From the NCBI RefSeq assembly GCF_988243305.1, contig NZ_OZ547136.1: DNA of 64,000 nt; one strand, written 5' to 3'. The stretch's first letter is position 1; every line of letters starts with the position of its first letter. This document shows, in pieces, positions 1-29,909 of the stretch. Both the position numbers and the translations under genes were made by a program. The notes under the pieces are model-generated. The model had not been told where the DNA came from and did not search any database. It saw only the letters and a list, made by a program, of their open reading frames with translations.

Positions 1-150
1 GCATCACTGCTGCCGTGCGATAACGTCTTTGCCATCGAAAGCCGCTGGTATCGCGATAACCCTCTGGTGATCCGCGGACCAGGCGCAGGGCGCGATGTCA
101 CCGCCGGGGCGATTCAGTCGGATATCAACCGGCTGGCGCAGTTGTTGTAA
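1..150 (+). CDS. metL: Bifunctional aspartokinase II / homoserine dehydrogenase II, 3' end only (partial; start lies upstream of window)
   Basis: Frame 1 reads through to TAA at 148-150, giving a C-terminus ...RDNPLVIRGPGAGRDVTAGAIQSDINRLAQLL that I recognise as MetL; position immediately upstream of metF fits E. coli synteny. Confidence 0.8.
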   Translation, partial: ASLLPCDNVFAIESRWYRDNPLVIRGPGAGRDVTAGAIQSDINRLAQLL

Positions 151-1244
151 TCCTGAGCCAGAGAAAGCAGTATTTGCATAACGCGCCCTGCGGAAAGCGG
201 GGTGCTGTGAGTAAATACTGCTTGTTTATGTAGCCAGTCGATAAAATGTCTGCTGGTTGCTAAAGAGAGCATTTCAGCTTTGCTGATATTTCCGCCCGTT
301 AATGCACATACCATTTTACGATTTTTTCCCTGAACCCAGAGTTGCCACTGATTTTTCCACCAGCCGTGATAAGTTGTTCCCTGAAAACGCCAGGGCATAT
401 TATCGGTATCGTCAGCTATTTCCTCTTCAATAAACCAAATCTCACCTTGCTGTTGGCGAAACAGATCAGCCCATGCCGTAATAATGGCACCTCTTAAAAA
501 ACACTCGTGTGAAATTACATGTGTTTTTACTGTAGGGAAGAGAATATTCAGTACTCTGAAATGCCCGTGTGCAGTGATAACCGGACGCAGAATAACACCT
601 TTAGCATTGCGTTTGAGCGCTGCGCTGCCATACTGAATTTCATCAAACTGACTGCGGCGTAGAAATTGTGCTTCGCGCATATCAACGCGTTGTACAATAT
701 TACTCTCGTGTAACTCTGGTTCTGCATTCCCTCTGTATCGATAATGCAGACTTTCTCCAGCCTGATGCTGCGTGTAATTAGTAGAAAGATGAAGAATATT
801 ACCGCGAAGAGCATCAAAACTGATTAAAACATACAGTTTCTGCCCGCTGCTGACTCCCTGAAATGGCACGAGAAAAGCAACCGTTTCGATTATTTCAGGA
901 GGCGTTATTTCTTTCTGATATTGTTTGGGTGTCCATACTTTTTTGCAGTTACGGCATTGAATGCGTTGCGAACCCTGTGGATTGTGACCATAACAAATCG
1001 TATCTGTACCATAACATACCGGGCAAAAATGGCCTTTCTCTGTTGCAAAAGTAGATAAGTGAACTGACAACCAGTCACGAAATTGTTGCTCGTCAAACAA
1101 CGGCGGGTAACTGCCACATGCCCGACAGTGCAATGCCGGATAACCCAGTCGATAGTCTGGCCAGCTGTAATCTGTCGAAGTTGGCTGCCCTAAATTACGG
1201 CAACCAAACGACTTGCAGGCATTAATCGTAAACAGAGTCGACAT
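114..1244 (-). CDS. Hypothetical cysteine-rich protein with two predicted N-terminal zinc ribbons (Cx4C...CxxC and CxxC...CxxC), possibly transposase-derived; function unknown
   Basis: 376-aa ORF with ATG start (1242-1244) and a GGTGA Shine-Dalgarno-like motif 5-6 nt upstream. Cys pairs at residues 10/15, 40/43, 74/77 and 97/100; the segment CPVCYG...GSQRIQCRNCKKVW resembles IS1595/ISXO2-type transposase zinc ribbons. No other motif recognised in the C-terminal ~260 aa. Not part of the K-12 gene order as I recall it. Confidence 0.7.
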   Translation of the reverse strand: MSTLFTINACKSFGCRNLGQPTSTDYSWPDYRLGYPALHCRACGSYPPLFDEQQFRDWLSVHLSTFATEKGHFCPVCYGTDTICYGHNPQGSQRIQCRNCKKVWTPKQYQKEITPPEIIETVAFLVPFQGVSSGQKLYVLISFDALRGNILHLSTNYTQHQAGESLHYRYRGNAEPELHESNIVQRVDMREAQFLRRSQFDEIQYGSAALKRNAKGVILRPVITAHGHFRVLNILFPTVKTHVISHECFLRGAIITAWADLFRQQQGEIWFIEEEIADDTDNMPWRFQGTTYHGWWKNQWQLWVQGKNRKMVCALTGGNISKAEMLSLATSRHFIDWLHKQAVFTHSTPLSAGRVMQILLSLAQDYNNCASRLISD

Positions 1245-1301
1245 ATATCACCAACGATTTCACAAGGTCGTTGATTTTGTCCGGCAACGCTCCCTTGTGG
1301 A

Positions 1302-1317
1302 TGTGATTGCTCTCACA
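1302..1317. promoter_or_regulatory. Candidate CRP (cAMP receptor protein) binding site, perfect consensus palindrome TGTGA-N6-TCACA
   Basis: tgtgattgctctcaca read directly in the divergent intergenic region; centre ~67 bp upstream of the 1377 ATG. Confidence 0.45.
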
Positions 1318-1376
1318 TAAATAACTCTTTCAGAACGTAATGTAGCAATCCTTTATCTCACTGGAAGGGATTGTTT

Positions 1377-2930
1377 ATGAAAATTAAAATGCTTGCTGCG
1401 GGTATCGCATTAACACTGTCGTTTTGGGCTTGCGCCAAAGATGTCACCATCATTTATACCAACGACCTCCATGCACATGTAGAGCCTTATAAAGTGCCGT
1501 GGATTGCTGACGGTAAACGAGATATTGGCGGCTGGGCAAATATCACTACGCTTGTTAAACAAGAAAAAGCTAAAAACAAAGCGACCTGGTTTTTTGATGC
1601 GGGTGACTATTTTACCGGGCCGTATATCAGCAGCCTGACTAAAGGCAAGGCGATTATCGATATTATGAATACCATGCCGTTCGATGCGGTCACTATAGGT
1701 AATCATGAATTTGATCACGGCTGGGACAACACATTATTACAGTTGAGTCAGGCAAAATTCCCGATTGTGCAGGGCAATGTTTTTTATCAGAACAGCAGTA
1801 AATCATTCTGGGATAAGCCCTATACCATCATTGAAAAAGACGGCGTGAAAATTGGCGTGATTGGTTTGCACGGTGTATTTGCCTTTAATGATACGGTATC
1901 TGCGGCAACGCGAGTGGGTATTGAGGCGCGTGATGAAATTAAATGGCTACAACGTTATATCGATGAACTCAAAGGCAAGGTTGATTTGACCGTTGCGCTG
2001 ATTCACGAAGGTGTTCCGGCCCGCCAGTCCAGTATGGGGGGCACAGATGTGCGCCGCGCACTGGATAAAGATATTCAGACGGCAAGTCAGGTGAAAGGGC
2101 TGGATATTTTGATCACCGGGCATGCACATGTGGGTACGCCGGAACCGATTAAAGTCGGCAATACGCTCATCCTCTCCACTGACAGCGGCGGGATTGATGT
2201 GGGCAAACTGGTTCTCGACTACAAAGAGAAGCCGCATGATTTTACGGTGAAAAACTTCGAGCTTAAAACCATTTACGCCGACGAGTGGAAGCCCGATCCG
2301 CAAACGAAACAGGTGATCGACGGCTGGAATAAAAAGCTTGATGAAGTGGTGCAACAAACGGTCGCGAAATCGCCGGTTGAATTAAAACGTGCCTATGGTG
2401 AATCGGCTTCCCTCGGGAACCTGGCGGCGGACGCTTTACTGGTAGCGGCGGGTAAAAACACCCAATTGGCGTTAACCAACTCTGGCGGTATTCGCAATGA
2501 GATCCCCGCAGGGGCGATTACGATGGGCGGCGTCATCAGTACCTTCCCGTTCCCCAATGAACTGGTGACGATGGAGCTCACAGGTAAACAATTACGCAGT
2601 TTGATGGAACACGGCGCAAGTTTAAGTAATGGCGTTTTACAGGTATCGAAAGGCCTGGAAATGAAGTACGACAGCAGCAAACCGGTTGGTCAGCGGGTAA
2701 TCACACTGACTCTGAATGGCAAACCCATTGAAGATGCGACGATTTACCACATTGCTACTCAGAGTTTCCTTGCTGATGGTGGAGATGGTTTTACCGCCTT
2801 TACCGAAGGGAAAGCGCGTAACACAACGGGCGGTTATTACGTTTATCACGCCGTGGTTGATTACTTCAAAGCGGGCAATACCATTACGGATGAACAGATC
2901 AACGGTATGCGCGTGAAAGATATCAAGTAA
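1377..2930 (+). CDS. Secreted (periplasmic) bifunctional metallophosphoesterase / 5'-nucleotidase-family protein (UshA/CpdB-like)
   Basis: ORF track 1371..2930 begins at TTG; ATG at 1377 with GGAAGGGA 8 nt upstream is the more likely start (~517 aa). N-terminal signal peptide [20 protein letters not shown]. Calcineurin-like phosphoesterase motifs [23 protein letters not shown]; C-terminal region with GNLAADALL and NSGGIR typical of the 5'-nucleotidase C-terminal domain. Confidence 0.85.
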
Positions 2931-2986
2931 AAGTACGTATTGAGTTGATTCATCTGTTTGTTACCAGTTGATTTTGCAGATCCAGT

Positions 2987-3016
2987 ATTCGGCCTACGCG
3001 AGGGCGCAGGCCGAAT
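2987..3016. repeat. GC-rich stem-loop (9-bp stem attcggcct / aggccgaat, 12-nt loop); REP-like or terminator-like
   Basis: Inverted repeat read directly; no clear T-run on either side. Confidence 0.35.
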
Positions 3017-3238
3017 CAGATGCCTTAGCATCACCATCCGGTGGCAGGACGTTGTTTTTCGAATAAGCCCAGGTGTCGCTGTGTTGTCAGAATATCAGTC
3101 AAAACGTGCGAGGTGGATTGCGCTATAGAGAAATCTTTTATCGCCTCTAATTAAGATGAGTTTTTTTCAACTTCCCTGATTTTTCCTCACCATCATTGGT
3201 CATTTTTCGGTTGACGCCCCTCGGCTTTTCCTTCATCT

Positions 3239-3270
3239 TTACATCTGGACGTCTAAATGGATAGATGTTC
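3239..3270 (+). promoter_or_regulatory. MetJ operator (tandem 8-bp met boxes) upstream of metF
   Basis: ggacgtct aaatggat agatgttc matches AGACGTCT-type met boxes; position 40-70 bp upstream of the metF start. Confidence 0.6.
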
Positions 3271-3308
3271 ACAACACAACATATAACTACAAGCGATTGA
3301 TGAGGTAA

Positions 3309-4202
<894 letters not shown>

Positions 4203-4476
4203 ATAGTGTGGCTTTTGTGAAAATCACACAGTGATCACAAATTTTAAACAGAGCACAAAATGCTGCCTCGAAATGAGGGCGGGAAAATAAGGGTGTCAGC
4301 CTTGTTTTCTCCCTCATTACTTGAAGGATATAAAGCTAAAACCCTTTTTTATAAAGCATTTGTCCGAATTCGGACATAATCAAAAAAGCTTAATTACGAT
4401 CAATTTGATCTACATCTCTTTAACCAACAATATGTAAGATCTCAACTATCGCATCCGTGGATTAATTCAATTATAA

Positions 4477-6711
<2,235 letters not shown>

Positions 6712-6720
6712 TCTGACCTT

Positions 6721-6760
6721 CTTCAGCGGCTGCCTTTCAGGCAGTCGCTGAAGTTTCTTT
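6721..6760 (+). terminator. Rho-independent terminator downstream of katG
   Basis: Hairpin cttcagcggctgcc-tttc-aggcagtcgctgaag followed by tttcttt. Confidence 0.6.
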
Positions 6761-6804
6761 ACCGGCGTATAGTGTCCACAGGAAAACTACACACTGGATC
6801 TCTC

Positions 6805-7710
6805 ATGTCTGCCGCAGGAAAGAGCAACCCACTGGCAATCAGTGGCCTGGTTGTGCTCACACTTATCTGGAGTTATAGCTGGATTTTCATGAAGCAAGTC
6901 ACCAGCTACATCGGTGCCTTCGACTTTACCGCCTTACGCTGCATTTTTGGCGCTCTCGTTTTATTCATCGTCCTTTTATTACGTGGTCGCGGAATGCGCC
7001 CGACGCCATTTAAATACACCTTAGCCATTGCCCTGTTACAAACCTGCGGGATGGTTGGTCTGGCGCAGTGGGCGCTGGTCAGCGGCGGAGCGGGGAAGGT
7101 GGCGATCCTGAGCTATACCATGCCGTTCTGGGTGGTGATTTTCGCCGCGTTGTTTCTCGGTGAACGCCTGCGACGTGGGCAATATTTCGCGATACTGATT
7201 GCCGCTTTCGGCTTATTTTTGGTGTTGCAGCCGTGGCAACTCGATTTCTCTTCGATGAAAAGTGCCATGCTGGCAATCCTCTCCGGTGTTAGTTGGGGGG
7301 CGAGCGCGATTGTTGCTAAACGTCTGTATGCCCGTCATCCGCGCGTGGATTTATTGTCGTTAACATCCTGGCAGATGCTGTATGCGGCGCTGGTGATGAG
7401 TGTGGTCGCTTTACTGGTGCCGCAACGTGAAATTGACTGGCAGCCTACCGTGTTCTGGGCGCTGGCCTACAGTGCGATTCTGGCGACGGCGCTGGCGTGG
7501 AGCTTATGGTTGTTTGTATTGAAAAACTTGCCTGCCAGTATTGCCAGTTTAAGCACACTGGCCGTTCCCGTTTGCGGCGTACTCTTTTCCTGGTGGCTGC
7601 TCGGTGAGAATCCGGGGGCCGTTGAAGGTAGCGGTATTGTGCTGATTGTGCTGGCACTGGCGCTGGTGAGCCGTAAGAAAAAAGAAGCTGTCAGTGTAAA
7701 AAGCATCTGA
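6805..7710 (+). CDS. yijE: EamA/DMT-family inner membrane transporter
   Basis: ORF 6772..7710; ATG at 6805 gives ~301 aa; multiple hydrophobic helices; synteny. Confidence 0.85.
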
Positions 7711-17890: not shown

Positions 17891-18232
17891 ATGGCATACC
17901 TGGTGGCAGTAACCGCCTGCGTAAGCGGCGTGGCGCATACTTATATGGCGGCGGAACGGCTGGAAAAGTTGTGCCTGTTAGAGAAGTGGGGCGTCAGCAT
18001 TGAAACTCAGGGCGCGCTGGGAACGGAGAATCGTTTAGCGGACGAGGATATCCGTCGGGCGGATGTTGCTCTGTTAATTACGGATATCGAGCTTGCCGGT
18101 GCTGAGCGATTTGACCATTGCCGCTATGTGCAATGCAGCATCTACGCATTCCTGCGTGAGCCGCAGCGGGTGATGAGCGCGGTGCGCAAAGTGCTTTCTG
18201 CGCCGCAGCAAACCCATCTCATTCTGGAGTAG
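17891..18232 (+). CDS. frwD: Fructose-like PTS EIIB component 2
   Basis: ORF 17828..18232; ATG at 17891 gives 113 aa (MAYLVAVTACVSGVAHTYMAAE...). Confidence 0.9.
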   Translation: MAYLVAVTACVSGVAHTYMAAERLEKLCLLEKWGVSIETQGALGTENRLADEDIRRADVALLITDIELAGAERFDHCRYVQCSIYAFLREPQRVMSAVRKVLSAPQQTHLILE

Positions 18233-28991: not shown

Positions 28992-29909
28992 ATGAATATT
29001 CGTGATCTTGAGTACCTGGTGGCATTGGCCGAACACCGCCATTTTCGGCGTGCGGCAGATTCCTGCCACGTTAGCCAGCCGACGCTTAGCGGGCAAATTC
29101 GTAAGCTGGAAGATGAGTTGGGCGTGATGTTGCTGGAGCGGACCAGCCGTAAAGTGTTGTTCACCCAGGCGGGAATGCTGCTGGTGGATCAGGCGCGTAC
29201 CGTGCTGCGTGAGGTGAAAGTCCTTAAAGAGATGGCAAGCCAGCAGGGCGAGACGATGTCCGGACCGCTGCATATTGGTTTGATTCCCACGGTTGGACCG
29301 TACCTGCTACCGCATATTATCCCGATGCTGCACCAGACCTTTCCAAAGCTGGAAATGTATCTGCATGAAGCACAGACCCACCAGTTACTGGCGCAACTGG
29401 ACAGCGGCAAGCTCGATTGCGTGATCCTCGCGCTGGTGAAAGAGAGCGAAGCATTCATTGAAGTGCCGTTGTTTGATGAGCCAATGTTGCTGGCTATCTA
29501 TGAAGATCACCCGTGGGCGAACCGCGAATGCGTACCGATGGCCGATCTGGCAGGGGAAAAACTGCTGATGCTGGAAGACGGTCACTGTTTGCGCGATCAG
29601 GCAATGGGTTTCTGCTTTGAAGCCGGGGCGGATGAAGATACACACTTCCGCGCGACCAGCCTGGAGACGCTGCGCAACATGGTGGCGGCAGGTAGCGGGA
29701 TCACTTTACTGCCTGCACTGGCTGTGCCGCCGGAGCGCAAACGCGATGGGGTTGTTTATTTGCCGTGTATTAAGCCGGAACCTCGCCGCACTATTGGCCT
29801 GGTTTATCGTCCTGGCTCACCGCTGCGCAGCCGCTATGAGCAGCTGGCAGAGGCCATCCGCGCAAGAATGGATGGCCATTTCGATAAAGTGTTAAAACAG
29901 GCGGTTTAA
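28992..29909 (+). CDS. oxyR: LysR-family oxidative-stress regulator
   Basis: ORF 28947..29909; ATG at 28992 gives 305 aa ([33 protein letters not shown]...). Confidence 0.95.

What the first reader, a model, noticed from the sequence alone, without database searches (positions are those of the whole stretch)
114..150. 37-bp convergent overlap between the island gene and the metL 3' end
The minus-strand 376-aa ORF stops at 114-116, inside the final 12 codons of metL (stop 148-150). The two C-termini are therefore co-encoded on opposite strands, with no room for independent terminators. This either reflects an insertion that replaced the native metL terminator or indicates antisense interplay between the transcripts.
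Basis: seen in the sequence. Interest (0 to 1): 0.35.

Follow-up and report, generated by a model that had tools for sequence, protein, structure and literature searches.

The report
Ordinary tail-to-tail gene overlap at metL
Two real genes on opposite strands share 37 bases because the smaller one lost its own ending and now reads a few codons into the end of metL; this is old, common and apparently harmless, and metL's transcription stop signal seems to sit inside the neighbour's coding sequence.

Summary
metL ends at 148-150, and the 376-aa minus-strand ORF (1244..114) stops at 116..114, giving a 37-bp overlap. RefSeq annotates the same overlap, which is present in 1,181 of 5,426 complete E. 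coli genomes.

It is not an insertion scar. The same gene pair (zinc-ribbon ORF plus a divergent 5'-nucleotidase) sits next to metL in other Escherichia species, Pseudocitrobacter, Klebsiella, Kosakonia, Phytobacter and Citrobacter. In Escherichia its divergence matches that of the flanking genes.

Family conservation ends at an invariant Tyr-Asn (window 149..144). After that, tails vary from 3 to 35 residues. Here the last nine codons (NCASRLISD) are simply antisense metL, read to the first in-frame stop. The junction fits a short deletion between two TACAAC repeats, but this is inferred. MetL's C-terminus never changes, while the ORF tail does.

"No room for a terminator" is probably wrong. 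A -37 kcal/mol hairpin with a U-rich tail (165-231, metL sense) lies inside the ORF's last codons. It is stronger than all 1,000 synonymous recodings and recurs in Klebsiella, but is absent where a REP spacer exists. Termination itself is untested.

This is an ordinary kind of feature with a tidy example attached. Interest is low to moderate.

The parts
1..150 (+). 3' end of metL (last 49 codons plus TAA stop at 148-150)
   Evidence: Translation ends GAIQSDINRLAQLL*. metL is annotated under the match in all E. coli hits. The MetL C-terminus is identical in the window and all 22 other metL-adjacent loci examined.
114..1244 (-). 376-aa ORF, annotated 'cytoplasmic protein' or 'hypothetical protein'. 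It belongs to a small uncharacterised family with an InsA/IS1595-type zinc ribbon and is always divergent from a 5'-nucleotidase gene.
   Evidence: ORF listed. Homologues of 371-419 aa occur across Enterobacteriaceae and share many invariant columns. Zinc-ribbon hits are weak and below cut-off; a distant member passes the Pfam cut-off. The family has only 137 clusters in 1.84 billion representatives.
114..150 (.). The 37-bp convergent overlap
117..143 (-). Passenger tail of the ORF: nine codons (NCASRLISD) that are the antisense of metL codons, followed by the stop at 116..114
   Evidence: Tails after the invariant Tyr-Asn differ in length and sequence across the family. Variants NCASRLISD, NCARRLISD and NCASLLISD occur while MetL stays invariant. 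The stop is the first in that antisense frame.
144..150 (.). Junction heptamer GTTGTAA (+), which is TTACAAC on the minus strand. It is both the last Leu codon plus stop of metL and the third base of Asp365 plus the invariant Tyr366-Asn367 codons of the ORF. It is the inferred microhomology at which the ORF's own tail, stop and spacer were deleted.
   Evidence: Y366 and N367 are invariant. Junction sequences of the window plus 22 loci are. The Klebsiella-type junction TAYAAC-GCGACGC-TTACAG becomes the E. coli type by loss of 14 nt if metL ends TTG TTG TAA. This step is inference.
165..223 (+). Nested hairpin in the metL sense, starting 14 nt after the metL stop and lying inside ORF codons 341-360. 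It is the candidate metBL terminator or 3'-end structure.
   Evidence: Energy is -37.1 kcal/mol, z = -6.5 against dinucleotide shuffles; the opposite strand gives only -24.0. It is the most stable 70-nt window in 1-3400 and fifth of 6,394 in the whole window. None of 1,000 synonymous recodings is as stable. The structure is shared with Klebsiella with 2 compensatory pairs.
222..231 (+). U-rich tract UUGUUUAUGU at the 3' foot of the hairpin
   Evidence: Read from the sequence. Equivalent tracts are UGUUUUUC in K. pneumoniae and UCUUUUCC in K. oxytoca. The simple terminator scanner did not flag it.
230..260 (+). Second, G.U-rich hairpin in the metL sense, inside the ORF coding sequence
   Evidence: It is conserved in E. 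whittamii and P. vendiensis. Its function is unknown.
1377..2930 (+). Bifunctional metallophosphatase/5'-nucleotidase, the divergent partner of the ORF
   Evidence: Pfam Metallophos and 5_nucleotid_C hits. Annotated.
152..3161 (.). The 3,010-bp segment that K-12 lacks; K-12 has an unrelated 197 bp in its place
   Evidence: blastn of the window against the K-12 locus; alignment A3.

Best explanation
The overlap is a passive structural consequence of a compacted convergent junction. It is not an insertion scar and there is no sign it is a regulatory device.

Shown: the ORF family is an old neighbour of metL in Enterobacteriaceae. Its conserved sequence ends at an invariant Tyr-Asn, and whatever follows is read until a stop codon appears.

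Inferred: in the lineage leading to Escherichia and Pseudocitrobacter, a short deletion between two TACAAC repeats removed the ORF's own tail, stop codon and the spacer. One repeat was the Tyr-Asn codons. The other was the reverse complement of metL's TTG-TTG-TA. The ORF now runs nine codons into antisense metL and ends at the first in-frame stop, 37 nt in.

Shown: in the shared stretch MetL is the constrained partner and the ORF tail varies.

Inferred from structure, codon-level selection and comparative pattern: because no intergenic DNA is left, the metBL transcript ends at a hairpin with a U-rich tract (165-231) built into the ORF's last ~20 conserved codons by codon choice and a few substitutions.

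Inferred from general knowledge only: the ORF's own transcript must run at least 37 nt into metL. It is probably ended there by Rho or by polymerase collision.
For: Reality and frequency of the overlap:
- (1,181 of 5,426 genomes).

Old neighbour of metL:
- 37-bp overlap in E. whittamii, Escherichia sp. MOD1-EC7003, a divergent E. coli (SCPM-O-B-8794), a metagenome bin labelled Citrobacter (L013) and two Pseudocitrobacter species.
- 26-bp overlap in three Klebsiella, one Kosakonia, two Phytobacter and two Citrobacter.
- Gaps of 26-91 bp with REP-like hairpins in seven further Citrobacter loci and in Superficieibacter.
- Divergence of ORF and nt5 matches the flanks in Escherichia.

Plastic tail:
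- Y366 and N367 are invariant and tails range from 3 to 35 aa.
- In Citrobacter sp. wls619 the ORF reads through a REP element and then 26 nt into metL.
- The 26- and 37-nt overlaps are exactly the first stops of two antisense frames.

MetL dominates:
- The MetL C-terminus is identical in the window and all 22 other loci, while the ORF tail shows S/R and R/L changes.

Embedded hairpin:
- (-37.1 against -24.0 kcal/mol on the two strands; top structure in 1-3400).
- strong only in the loci with the 37-bp overlap and in Klebsiella. Absent in Citrobacter with REP spacers and in loci away from metL.
-, synonymous recodings at least as stable: window 0/1000, K. spallanzanii 0, K. pneumoniae 2, P. 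cyperus 7, E. whittamii 7, K. oxytoca 12, MOD1 21. Controls: 65-747 per 1000.
- shared structure, 96% of cells paired, two compensatory pairs.
- Other haplotypes carry their own hairpin right after metL: a canonical terminator in the five-gene haplotype and REP in Citrobacter.
Against: - No transcript 3' ends are available, so termination at 222-231 is not shown.
- The U-tract is interrupted (7 U in 10), and the consensus scanner did not call the site.
- The association between abutting metL and having the hairpin rests on about two independent clades with the hairpin. Kosakonia and Phytobacter also abut metL but lack this hairpin; Kosakonia has a different one at the junction.
- The K. pneumoniae 120-nt fold is not unusual against dinucleotide shuffles (z = -0.9).
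- Covariation is thin: two pairs, effectively one lineage split.
- High third-position identity at the ORF 3' end could be recombination mosaicism rather than constraint.
- The TACAAC deletion is a reconstruction. No intermediate was found.
- K-12 carries 197 bp of unrelated sequence rather than a clean deletion, so the direction of that change is inferred only from phylogenetic distribution.
Confidence: 0.62

Rival explanations
1. One reading: a horizontally acquired island inserted immediately after the metL stop codon, displaced the native metL terminator, and thereby created the overlap.
For: - K-12 homology stops one base after the metL stop and resumes at 3162.
- Only 22% of complete E. 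coli genomes carry the segment.
- ORF G+C is 43-45%, slightly below its surroundings.
- The segment does move between genera: in P. vendiensis the ORF and nt5 are 93-94% identical to the window, while the flanks are 84-86%.
Against: - The same gene pair sits beside metL in Klebsiella, Citrobacter, Kosakonia, Phytobacter, Pseudocitrobacter and other Escherichia species.
- In Escherichia its divergence equals that of the flanks.
- There is no integrase, tRNA or flanking repeat.
- The overlap sits at a family-invariant codon pair, and the tails show repeated loss or gain of spacer. This points to local microdeletion rather than an insertion endpoint.
Confidence: 0.12
2. The overlap is maintained for antisense regulation. 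Complementary 3' ends of the metBL and ORF transcripts pair, or the polymerases collide, so that expression of one gene tunes the other.
For: - Complementarity of at least 37 nt is unavoidable, and about 80-118 nt if metBL ends at 224-232.
- Overlaps arose or persist in several lineages at 26 and 37 bp.
- Collision-driven termination at convergent pairs is documented in E. coli (bioRxiv 10.1101/2022.10.23.513370).
Against: - Seven Citrobacter loci and Superficieibacter separate the same genes with REP spacers.
- E. albertii, Enterobacter and others keep the ORF at loci away from metL.
- 78% of complete E. coli genomes lack this junction: about 66% have no ORF next to metL, and about 12% carry the five-gene haplotype with the ORF about 4.6 kb away.
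- The overlap length is just the first available stop.
- No expression data exist.
Confidence: 0.1
3. The hairpin at 165-223 is not a terminator. It could be a by-product of the conserved peptide LSAGRV..QIL plus hitch-hiking, or it could serve another role such as protecting the metL mRNA 3' end from exonucleases, forming a 3'UTR-derived small RNA, or acting as a DNA-level site.
For: - The inner stem is partly dictated by conserved residues, and weak versions exist in family members elsewhere (L014: -21 to -25 kcal/mol in two overlapping segments, 65/1000 recodings as stable).
- The U-tract is imperfect.
- A second hairpin follows at 230-260.
- There is no Rfam match.
Against: - Synonymous recoding never reaches the observed stability in the window (0/1000).
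- The G.U pairs make it specific to the metL-sense strand.
- It starts 14 nt after the stop codon and is followed by a U-rich tract in Escherichia and in two of three Klebsiella.
Confidence: 0.25
4. The ORF's annotated end is wrong or irrelevant. The protein effectively ends before position 150, or the gene is decaying, so there is no true dual coding.
For: - The tail is unconstrained.
- The minus-strand version of the hairpin followed by UUUCUCU could stop some ORF transcripts before the stop codon.
- The partner nt5 gene is a pseudogene in at least one strain.
Against: - There is no in-frame stop before 116..114.
- 44 of the 52 cluster representatives that are at least 91% identical to the window ORF (P0001-P0048, P0050-P0052; plus the 80%-identical Pseudocitrobacter P0049, 377 aa) are full-length at 376-377 aa. 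All examined RefSeq genomes with this junction annotate the same 1,131-bp coding sequence.
- The family is well conserved up to Asn367.
Confidence: 0.05

Closest known systems
Convergent (tail-to-tail) overlapping gene pairs formed by loss of a stop codon and read-through into the neighbour (stop-codon mutation/deletion model; Lillo & Krakauer 2007, PMC2174442)
   Same: Two real genes are involved. The overlap ends at the first in-frame stop in the neighbour's antisense strand. One partner stays constrained while the other gains an arbitrary tail. The phase is one of the three usual ones (123:213 here, 123:132 for the 26-bp type).
   Different: The stop appears to have been lost by a small deletion at a microhomology that also removed the spacer, not by a point mutation. 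At 37 bp the overlap is longer than the modal 4 bp.
oxyR/sthA (18 bp) and frwD/yijO (14 bp) convergent overlaps of core E. coli genes, both in this window
   Same: Both are tail-to-tail overlaps of annotated genes with no intergenic terminator space.
   Different: Those overlaps are shorter. Their variability across strains was not examined here.
Bidirectional/overlapping terminators between convergent E. coli genes (Ju et al. 2019, as described in bioRxiv 10.1101/2022.10.23.513370)
   Same: A hairpin sits at the meeting point of two convergent transcription units. It is flanked by an A-rich stretch on one side and a U-rich stretch on the other. Polymerase collision is a plausible contributor.
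   Different: The hairpin lies inside one gene's coding sequence, about 50 nt upstream of that gene's stop codon. It therefore cannot be the normal end of the ORF transcript. It is also about 13 kcal/mol weaker on that strand. Functionally it is one-directional (metL sense), if it functions at all.
Genomic region GR31 'metL..metF' of ExPEC/APEC strains (PMC12928451)
   Same: It occupies the same chromosomal slot and contains related 5'-nucleotidase genes and a homologue of the ORF (77% amino-acid identity).
   Different: GR31 is the five-gene haplotype (Tsx porin, three nucleotidases, ORF). There metL is followed by a canonical terminator, and the ORF keeps its own tail (ESLTPSC*) and stop. 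It is found in about 660 of 5,426 genomes.
REP elements as spacers between convergent genes
   Same: In Citrobacter the same metL/ORF junction carries REP-like hairpins where Escherichia has none.
   Different: The window has no REP at this junction, and the hairpin at 165-223 has no REP consensus. There is a REP-like hairpin after nt5, near 2986-3055.

Membership tests
Convergent gene overlap by stop loss and read-through | Both partners are genuine protein-coding genes on opposite strands that share 3' nucleotides | tested here: met
   metL is identified by sequence and annotation. The ORF is conserved across genera with many invariant columns.
Convergent gene overlap by stop loss and read-through | The overlapping part of one gene is a derived extension that is not homologous to the tails of its relatives | tested here: met
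   Conservation stops at Y366-N367. Relatives carry unrelated tails of 3-35 aa.
Convergent gene overlap by stop loss and read-through | The extension ends at the first in-frame stop on the neighbour's antisense strand | tested here: met
   The first stops of the three antisense frames are at 147, 37 and 26 nt. The observed overlaps are 37 and 26.
Convergent gene overlap by stop loss and read-through | The invaded gene's protein is unchanged | tested here: met
   GAIQSDINRLAQLL is identical in the window and all 22 other metL-adjacent loci, and in K-12.
Intrinsic (Rho-independent) terminator | Stable G+C-rich stem-loop shortly after the stop codon on the transcribed strand | tested here: met
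   -37.1 kcal/mol, starting 14 nt after TAA, z = -6.5.
Intrinsic (Rho-independent) terminator | Uninterrupted U-tract directly after the stem | tested here: inconclusive
   UUGUUUAUGU has 7 U in 10. The consensus scan did not report it. Klebsiella equivalents are better: UGUUUUUC and UCUUUUCC.
Intrinsic (Rho-independent) terminator | Transcript 3' ends map to the U-tract | not testable with these tools
   No transcriptome data are available for a strain with this junction.
Bidirectional terminator of a convergent pair | The hairpin lies downstream of both stop codons, so that both transcripts can end at it | tested here: not met
   The hairpin (165-223) lies upstream of the ORF stop (116..114) in the ORF's direction, and it is weaker on that strand (-24.0 kcal/mol).
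Horizontally inserted genomic island | Divergence or phylogeny discordant with the flanking core genes within the genus | tested here: not met
   In E. whittamii, MOD1-EC7003 and SCPM-O-B-8794 the ORF is 90-92% and nt5 93-94% identical to the window, against 93-95% for metL and metF. It is discordant only in P. vendiensis.
Horizontally inserted genomic island | Mobility genes, a tRNA target or flanking direct repeats | tested here: not met
   The segment holds only the ORF and nt5. Zinc-ribbon similarity to IS1/IS1595 transposases is below cut-off and no transposase catalytic domain is detected.
IS1/IS1595 transposase | Match to the family model above its curated cut-off, including the catalytic domain | tested here: not met
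   NF033558 scores 19.6 bits against a cut-off of 100. Only residues 74-120, the zinc ribbon, match.
Known RNA family (Rfam) | Covariance-model match at or near the gathering score | tested here: not met
   There is only one chance-level hit elsewhere in 1-3400.

The most novel reading that the evidence does not exclude
The last ~20 conserved codons of a protein-coding gene have been recruited, by codon choice and a few amino-acid substitutions, to encode on the opposite strand the terminator or 3'-end structure of the convergent metBL operon. This solution is maintained in both Escherichia/Pseudocitrobacter and Klebsiella wherever the intergenic spacer has been lost, and it is absent where a REP spacer is present. 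That stretch would then be under dual constraint, for a protein on one strand and an RNA structure on the other. It would be a natural test case for how terminators are replaced after spacer deletion.
Probability: 0.5. Interest if true: 0.45.

Novelty: new member of a known kind. Interest (0 to 1): 0.3.

Why it matters
There are three practical consequences.

1. Annotators and comparative-genomics users should not read this junction as an insertion scar or an error. The K-12 arrangement is probably the derived one.

2. The locus gives a natural series for studying how convergent junctions compact and how a terminator is retained when the spacer disappears. The series runs from a REP spacer, to a 26-bp overlap, to a 37-bp overlap, plus two alternative E. 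coli haplotypes.

3. If the embedded hairpin is confirmed as the metBL terminator, it is a clear case of synonymous-site selection imposed by the opposite strand. That matters for codon-usage and dN/dS analyses and for recoding projects.

None of this overturns current understanding.

Tried and rejected
- **Structure prediction of the ORF.** AlphaFold2 on the 18-sequence alignment gave mean pLDDT 39. This is unusable, so no fold search was run.
- **Profile search against solved structures.** No hit at E <= 1.
- **Domain searches.** Pfam, NCBIfam and PHROGs gave only sub-threshold zinc-ribbon hits. Ten distant family members added nothing beyond an InsA-type zinc ribbon. The ORF's function stays unknown, and "regulator of the divergent nucleotidase" is only a guess.
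- **Rfam on 1-3400.** Nothing.
- **Simple terminator scan.** It did not flag the 165-223 hairpin, which has internal loops. It gave about the number of sites expected by chance.
- **A terminator for the ORF inside metL.** Window 20-160 on the minus strand is unremarkable (z = -0.7). The nearest consensus-like site is about 630 nt inside metL, which is not informative.
- **Third-position conservation along the ORF as a test of extra constraint**. The 3' end is more conserved against P. cyperus, but the profiles are mosaic, so recombination cannot be separated from selection.
- **Literature.** Nothing was found on this overlap. Only the GR31 description of the five-gene haplotype turned up.
- **Frame or sequencing error.** Rejected, because the same reading frame and stop occur in every RefSeq genome examined with this junction and the junction DNA is present in 1,181 genomes.
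Full report
**1. The observation**

Window 1-150 in frame 1 ends ...GAIQSDINRLAQLL with TAA at 148-150. This is the C-terminus of MetL, the bifunctional aspartate kinase/homoserine dehydrogenase II annotated under every E. coli match. The only long ORF on the other strand runs 1244..114 (376 aa, ATG start, TGA at 116..114).

The two coding sequences share 114-150, which is 37 nt. RefSeq annotates exactly this in E. coli CFSAN018748 (metL 3718-6150, 'cytoplasmic protein' 6114-7244 of L001) and in GPEC859, 631, S10 and SC418. The junction DNA (window 100-330) is present over at least 80% of its length in 1,181 of 5,426 complete E. coli genomes. The overlap is therefore real and fixed, not a frame error. 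K-12 does not have it: homology to K-12 ends at window 151 and resumes at 3162. The 3,010 bp in between are replaced in K-12 by an unrelated 197 bp.

**2. Is it more than chance?**

No. Reading antisense into metL from its 3' end, the three frames meet their first stop after 147, 37 and 26 nt. In the latter two frames stops occur about every 30 codons.

In the same 64-kb window, three of the six convergent gene junctions overlap: oxyR/sthA by 18 bp (29892-29909), frwD/yijO by 14 bp (18219-18232), and this one. Convergent overlaps formed by loss of a stop codon and read-through are a described class (Lillo & Krakauer 2007, PMC2174442). The phase here is 123:213, with the third codon positions coinciding.

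**3. What the neighbour gene is**

The ORF belongs to a small family: 253 hits in the 90%-identity collection and 137 clusters at E <= 0.001 among 1.84 billion representatives. It has no curated domain. It gives only sub-threshold hits of residues 74-106 to InsA/IS1/IS1595-type zinc ribbons, and one distant member passes the Pfam cut-off.

A structure prediction failed (pLDDT 39) and no solved relative exists. The ORF is always divergent from a gene for a 5'-nucleotidase with Metallophos and 5_nucleotid_C domains. Its function is unknown.

**4. Where the gene sits in other genomes**

A scan of one genome per species gave 37 loci. Together with earlier look-ups, they fall into four classes.

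- *37-bp overlap with tail NCAS[R/L]LISD:* E. coli, E. whittamii, Escherichia sp. MOD1-EC7003, a divergent 'E. coli' (SCPM-O-B-8794), two Pseudocitrobacter species, and one metagenome bin.
- *26-bp overlap:* K. pneumoniae, K. oxytoca, K. spallanzanii, Kosakonia and two Phytobacter, where Tyr-Asn is followed by 7 nt and then the metL stop. Also C. braakii and Citrobacter sp. wls619, which have longer tails.
- *Gaps of 26-91 bp filled by REP-like hairpins:* seven further Citrobacter loci and Superficieibacter.
- *Loci away from metL:* E. albertii (next to kdsA, with four nucleotidases and a Tsx porin), Enterobacter, Pluralibacter, Silvania, Rahnella and others.

A third E. coli haplotype, found in about 660 genomes, is the 'GR31 metL..metF' region of ExPEC (PMC12928451). 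Its gene order is metL, a canonical terminator, tsx, two nucleotidases, the ORF (77% amino-acid identity) and nt5.

**5. Island or ancestral?**

In E. whittamii, MOD1-EC7003 and SCPM-O-B-8794 the ORF (90-92% nucleotide identity to the window) and nt5 (93-94%) diverge like the flanking metL and metF (93-95%). In Klebsiella and Citrobacter nt5 (79%) also tracks the flanks (82-85%). This is the pattern of vertical inheritance.

The pair next to metL is therefore old, and the K-12 state is more likely derived. That polarity is inferred from distribution only, because K-12 carries unrelated DNA rather than a clean deletion. Exchange does occur: P. vendiensis has the ORF and nt5 at 93-94% identity but flanks at 84-86%.

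**6. Why the genes overlap**

In an 18-sequence alignment the family is conserved up to an invariant Tyr366-Asn367 (window 149..144). After that the sequences share nothing. Among 120 cluster representatives the tails after Tyr-Asn range from 3 to 35 residues.

In Citrobacter sp. wls619 the ORF even reads through a REP element (...SPDKRKRHPA...) and then 26 nt into metL. The protein evidently tolerates any tail, and translation simply continues to the next stop.

In the window the Tyr-Asn codons TAC AAC are themselves the reverse complement of metL's last Leu codon and stop (GTTGTA|A, 144-150). The following nine codons (NCASRLISD, 143..117) are antisense metL.

The Klebsiella-type junction reads TAYAAC-GCGACGC-TTACAGCAG. 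With the Escherichia metL ending (TTG TTG TAA) it would read TACAAC-GCGACGCT-TACAAC-AACTGCGCC. Loss of one repeat plus the spacer (14 nt) gives exactly the window's TACAAC-AACTGCGCC and shifts the frame from the 26-nt stop to the 37-nt stop. A larger deletion from a Citrobacter-like spacer would give the same product. This deletion between TACAAC repeats is an inference, and no intermediate was found.

**7. Which gene is constrained in the shared stretch?**

MetL's last 14 residues are identical in the window, in all 22 other metL-adjacent loci and in K-12. The ORF tail is polymorphic: NCASRLISD in 30 cluster representatives, NCARRLISD in 17 and NCASLLISD in 2.

The underlying changes are synonymous in metL: CGG/CGC/AGG for Arg and ATC/ATT for Ile. 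Even the choice of metL stop (TAA or TAG) corresponds to a synonymous GAT/GAC change in the ORF. The tail behaves as a passenger.

**8. 'No room for terminators'**

The 70-nt stretch starting 14 nt after the metL stop folds, in the metL sense, into a nested hairpin (165-223) of -37.1 kcal/mol, with z = -6.5 against dinucleotide shuffles. It is followed by UUGUUUAUGU. It is the most stable 70-nt window in 1-3400 and the fifth most stable of 6,394 in the whole window.

On the ORF's strand the same DNA gives only -24.0 kcal/mol, because several G.U pairs become A-C mismatches. It lies inside ORF codons 341-360, a conserved part of the protein.

Recoding those codons synonymously 1,000 times never reached the observed stability. 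The counts of recodings at least as stable were:

| Group | Locus | Recodings as stable (per 1,000) |
|---|---|---|
| 37-bp overlap | window | 0 |
| 37-bp overlap | P. cyperus (L005) | 7 |
| 37-bp overlap | E. whittamii (L010) | 7 |
| 37-bp overlap | Escherichia sp. MOD1 (L012) | 21 |
| 26-bp overlap, Klebsiella | K. spallanzanii (L033) | 0 |
| 26-bp overlap, Klebsiella | K. pneumoniae (L031) | 2 |
| 26-bp overlap, Klebsiella | K. oxytoca (L027) | 12 |
| Control, away from metL | E. albertii (L007) | 450 |
| Control, away from metL | Enterobacter asburiae (L016) | 300 |
| Control, away from metL | Pluralibacter (L014) | 65 |
| Control, REP spacer | Citrobacter (L006) | 747 |
| Control, 26-bp overlap | Kosakonia (L023) | 151 |

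Across 34 of the 35 loci tested (one lacked the Tyr-Asn motif used to position the segment), the equivalent segment is strongly structured only in the loci with the 37-bp overlap and in Klebsiella. The two groups share one consensus structure: 18 pairs, 96% of cells paired, two pairs with compensatory changes, and a covariation score exceeded by 1 of 500 shuffles. K. pneumoniae and K. oxytoca have U-tracts UGUUUUUC and UCUUUUCC.

Other haplotypes have their own hairpin right after metL: a textbook terminator in the five-gene haplotype, REP in Citrobacter, and a weak one in K-12.

I read this as the metBL terminator, or at least its 3'-end structure, written into the neighbour's coding sequence. 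The caveats are these:
- No 3' ends have been mapped.
- The U-tract is interrupted, and the simple scanner missed the site.
- Only about two independent clades carry the hairpin.
- Kosakonia and Phytobacter abut metL without it, although Kosakonia has another hairpin at the junction.
- The K. pneumoniae fold is unremarkable against dinucleotide shuffles.
- The elevated third-position identity at the ORF's 3' end is confounded by recombination.

**9. The ORF's own transcript**

It must extend at least to 114, which is 37 nt into metL. No structure stands out there (z = -0.7). The nearest consensus-like terminator on that strand is about 630 nt inside metL.

From general knowledge of E. coli, untranslated antisense RNA after a stop codon is a typical Rho substrate, and head-on polymerase collisions contribute at convergent pairs (bioRxiv 10.1101/2022.10.23.513370). 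This step is pure inference. Some complementarity between the two transcripts is unavoidable, at least 37 nt and about 80-118 nt if metBL ends at 224-232. Nothing indicates that it is used for regulation, and lineages with REP spacers or with the ORF elsewhere do without it.

**10. Verdict**

The overlap is an ordinary, annotated, ancient tail-to-tail overlap caused by loss of the ORF's own end. It is neither an insertion scar nor a demonstrated antisense device.

The one feature worth following up is the strand-specific, codon-selected hairpin that appears to serve as metL's terminator inside the neighbour's coding sequence. It is a new example of a known kind. Interest: 0.3.

Noticed in passing
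window 29892-29909 and 18219-18232: There are two further convergent overlaps of core genes in the same window: oxyR/sthA (18 bp) and frwD/yijO (14 bp). Three of the six convergent junctions in the window overlap.
   Followed up: partly
window 230-260 (+): A second hairpin in the metL sense, rich in G.U pairs, lies just after the candidate terminator and still inside the ORF coding sequence. It is conserved in E. whittamii and P. vendiensis. Its role is unknown.
   Followed up: partly
L028 (Citrobacter sp. wls619) 7104-7212: The ORF homologue reads straight through a REP-like element (peptide ...SPDKRKRHPA...) and then 26 nt into metL. This is a REP element translated as part of a protein tail.
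   Followed up: partly
L009 (Pseudocitrobacter vendiensis) 6001-7131 and flanks: The ORF and nt5 are 93-94% identical to the window, while the flanking metL and metF are only 84-86% identical. This suggests recent exchange of the two-gene segment between Escherichia and Pseudocitrobacter by recombination in the conserved flanks.
   Followed up: partly
L003/L004 (E. coli LI60C3), five-gene haplotype: This haplotype is mosaic. The metF-proximal nucleotidase is 95% identical to the window's, but the adjacent ORF is only 78% identical, so a recombination breakpoint lies near or within the ORF.
   Followed up: no
window 1-25000: The best match among 5,426 complete E. coli genomes is only 98.3% identical over 25 kb, although gene order is standard E. 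coli (metL to rplA). The source may be an under-sampled lineage.
   Followed up: no
window about 2986-3055: A very stable structure on the minus strand (-36 kcal/mol), containing REP-like GCCGAAT/TCGGCC repeats, follows the nt5 stop. It lies inside the segment that K-12 lacks.
   Followed up: no
L047 (E. coli 631) 2478 onward: The partner 5'-nucleotidase is annotated as a pseudogene (internal stop) in this strain, while the ORF and its overlap with metL are intact.
   Followed up: no
L007/L008 (E. albertii), L016, L018, L038: Away from metL, the ORF homologue sits beside clusters of up to four paralogous 5'-nucleotidase genes plus a Tsx-type nucleoside channel. This suggests a nucleoside-scavenging module in which the zinc-ribbon ORF is the constant divergent partner.
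   Followed up: partly
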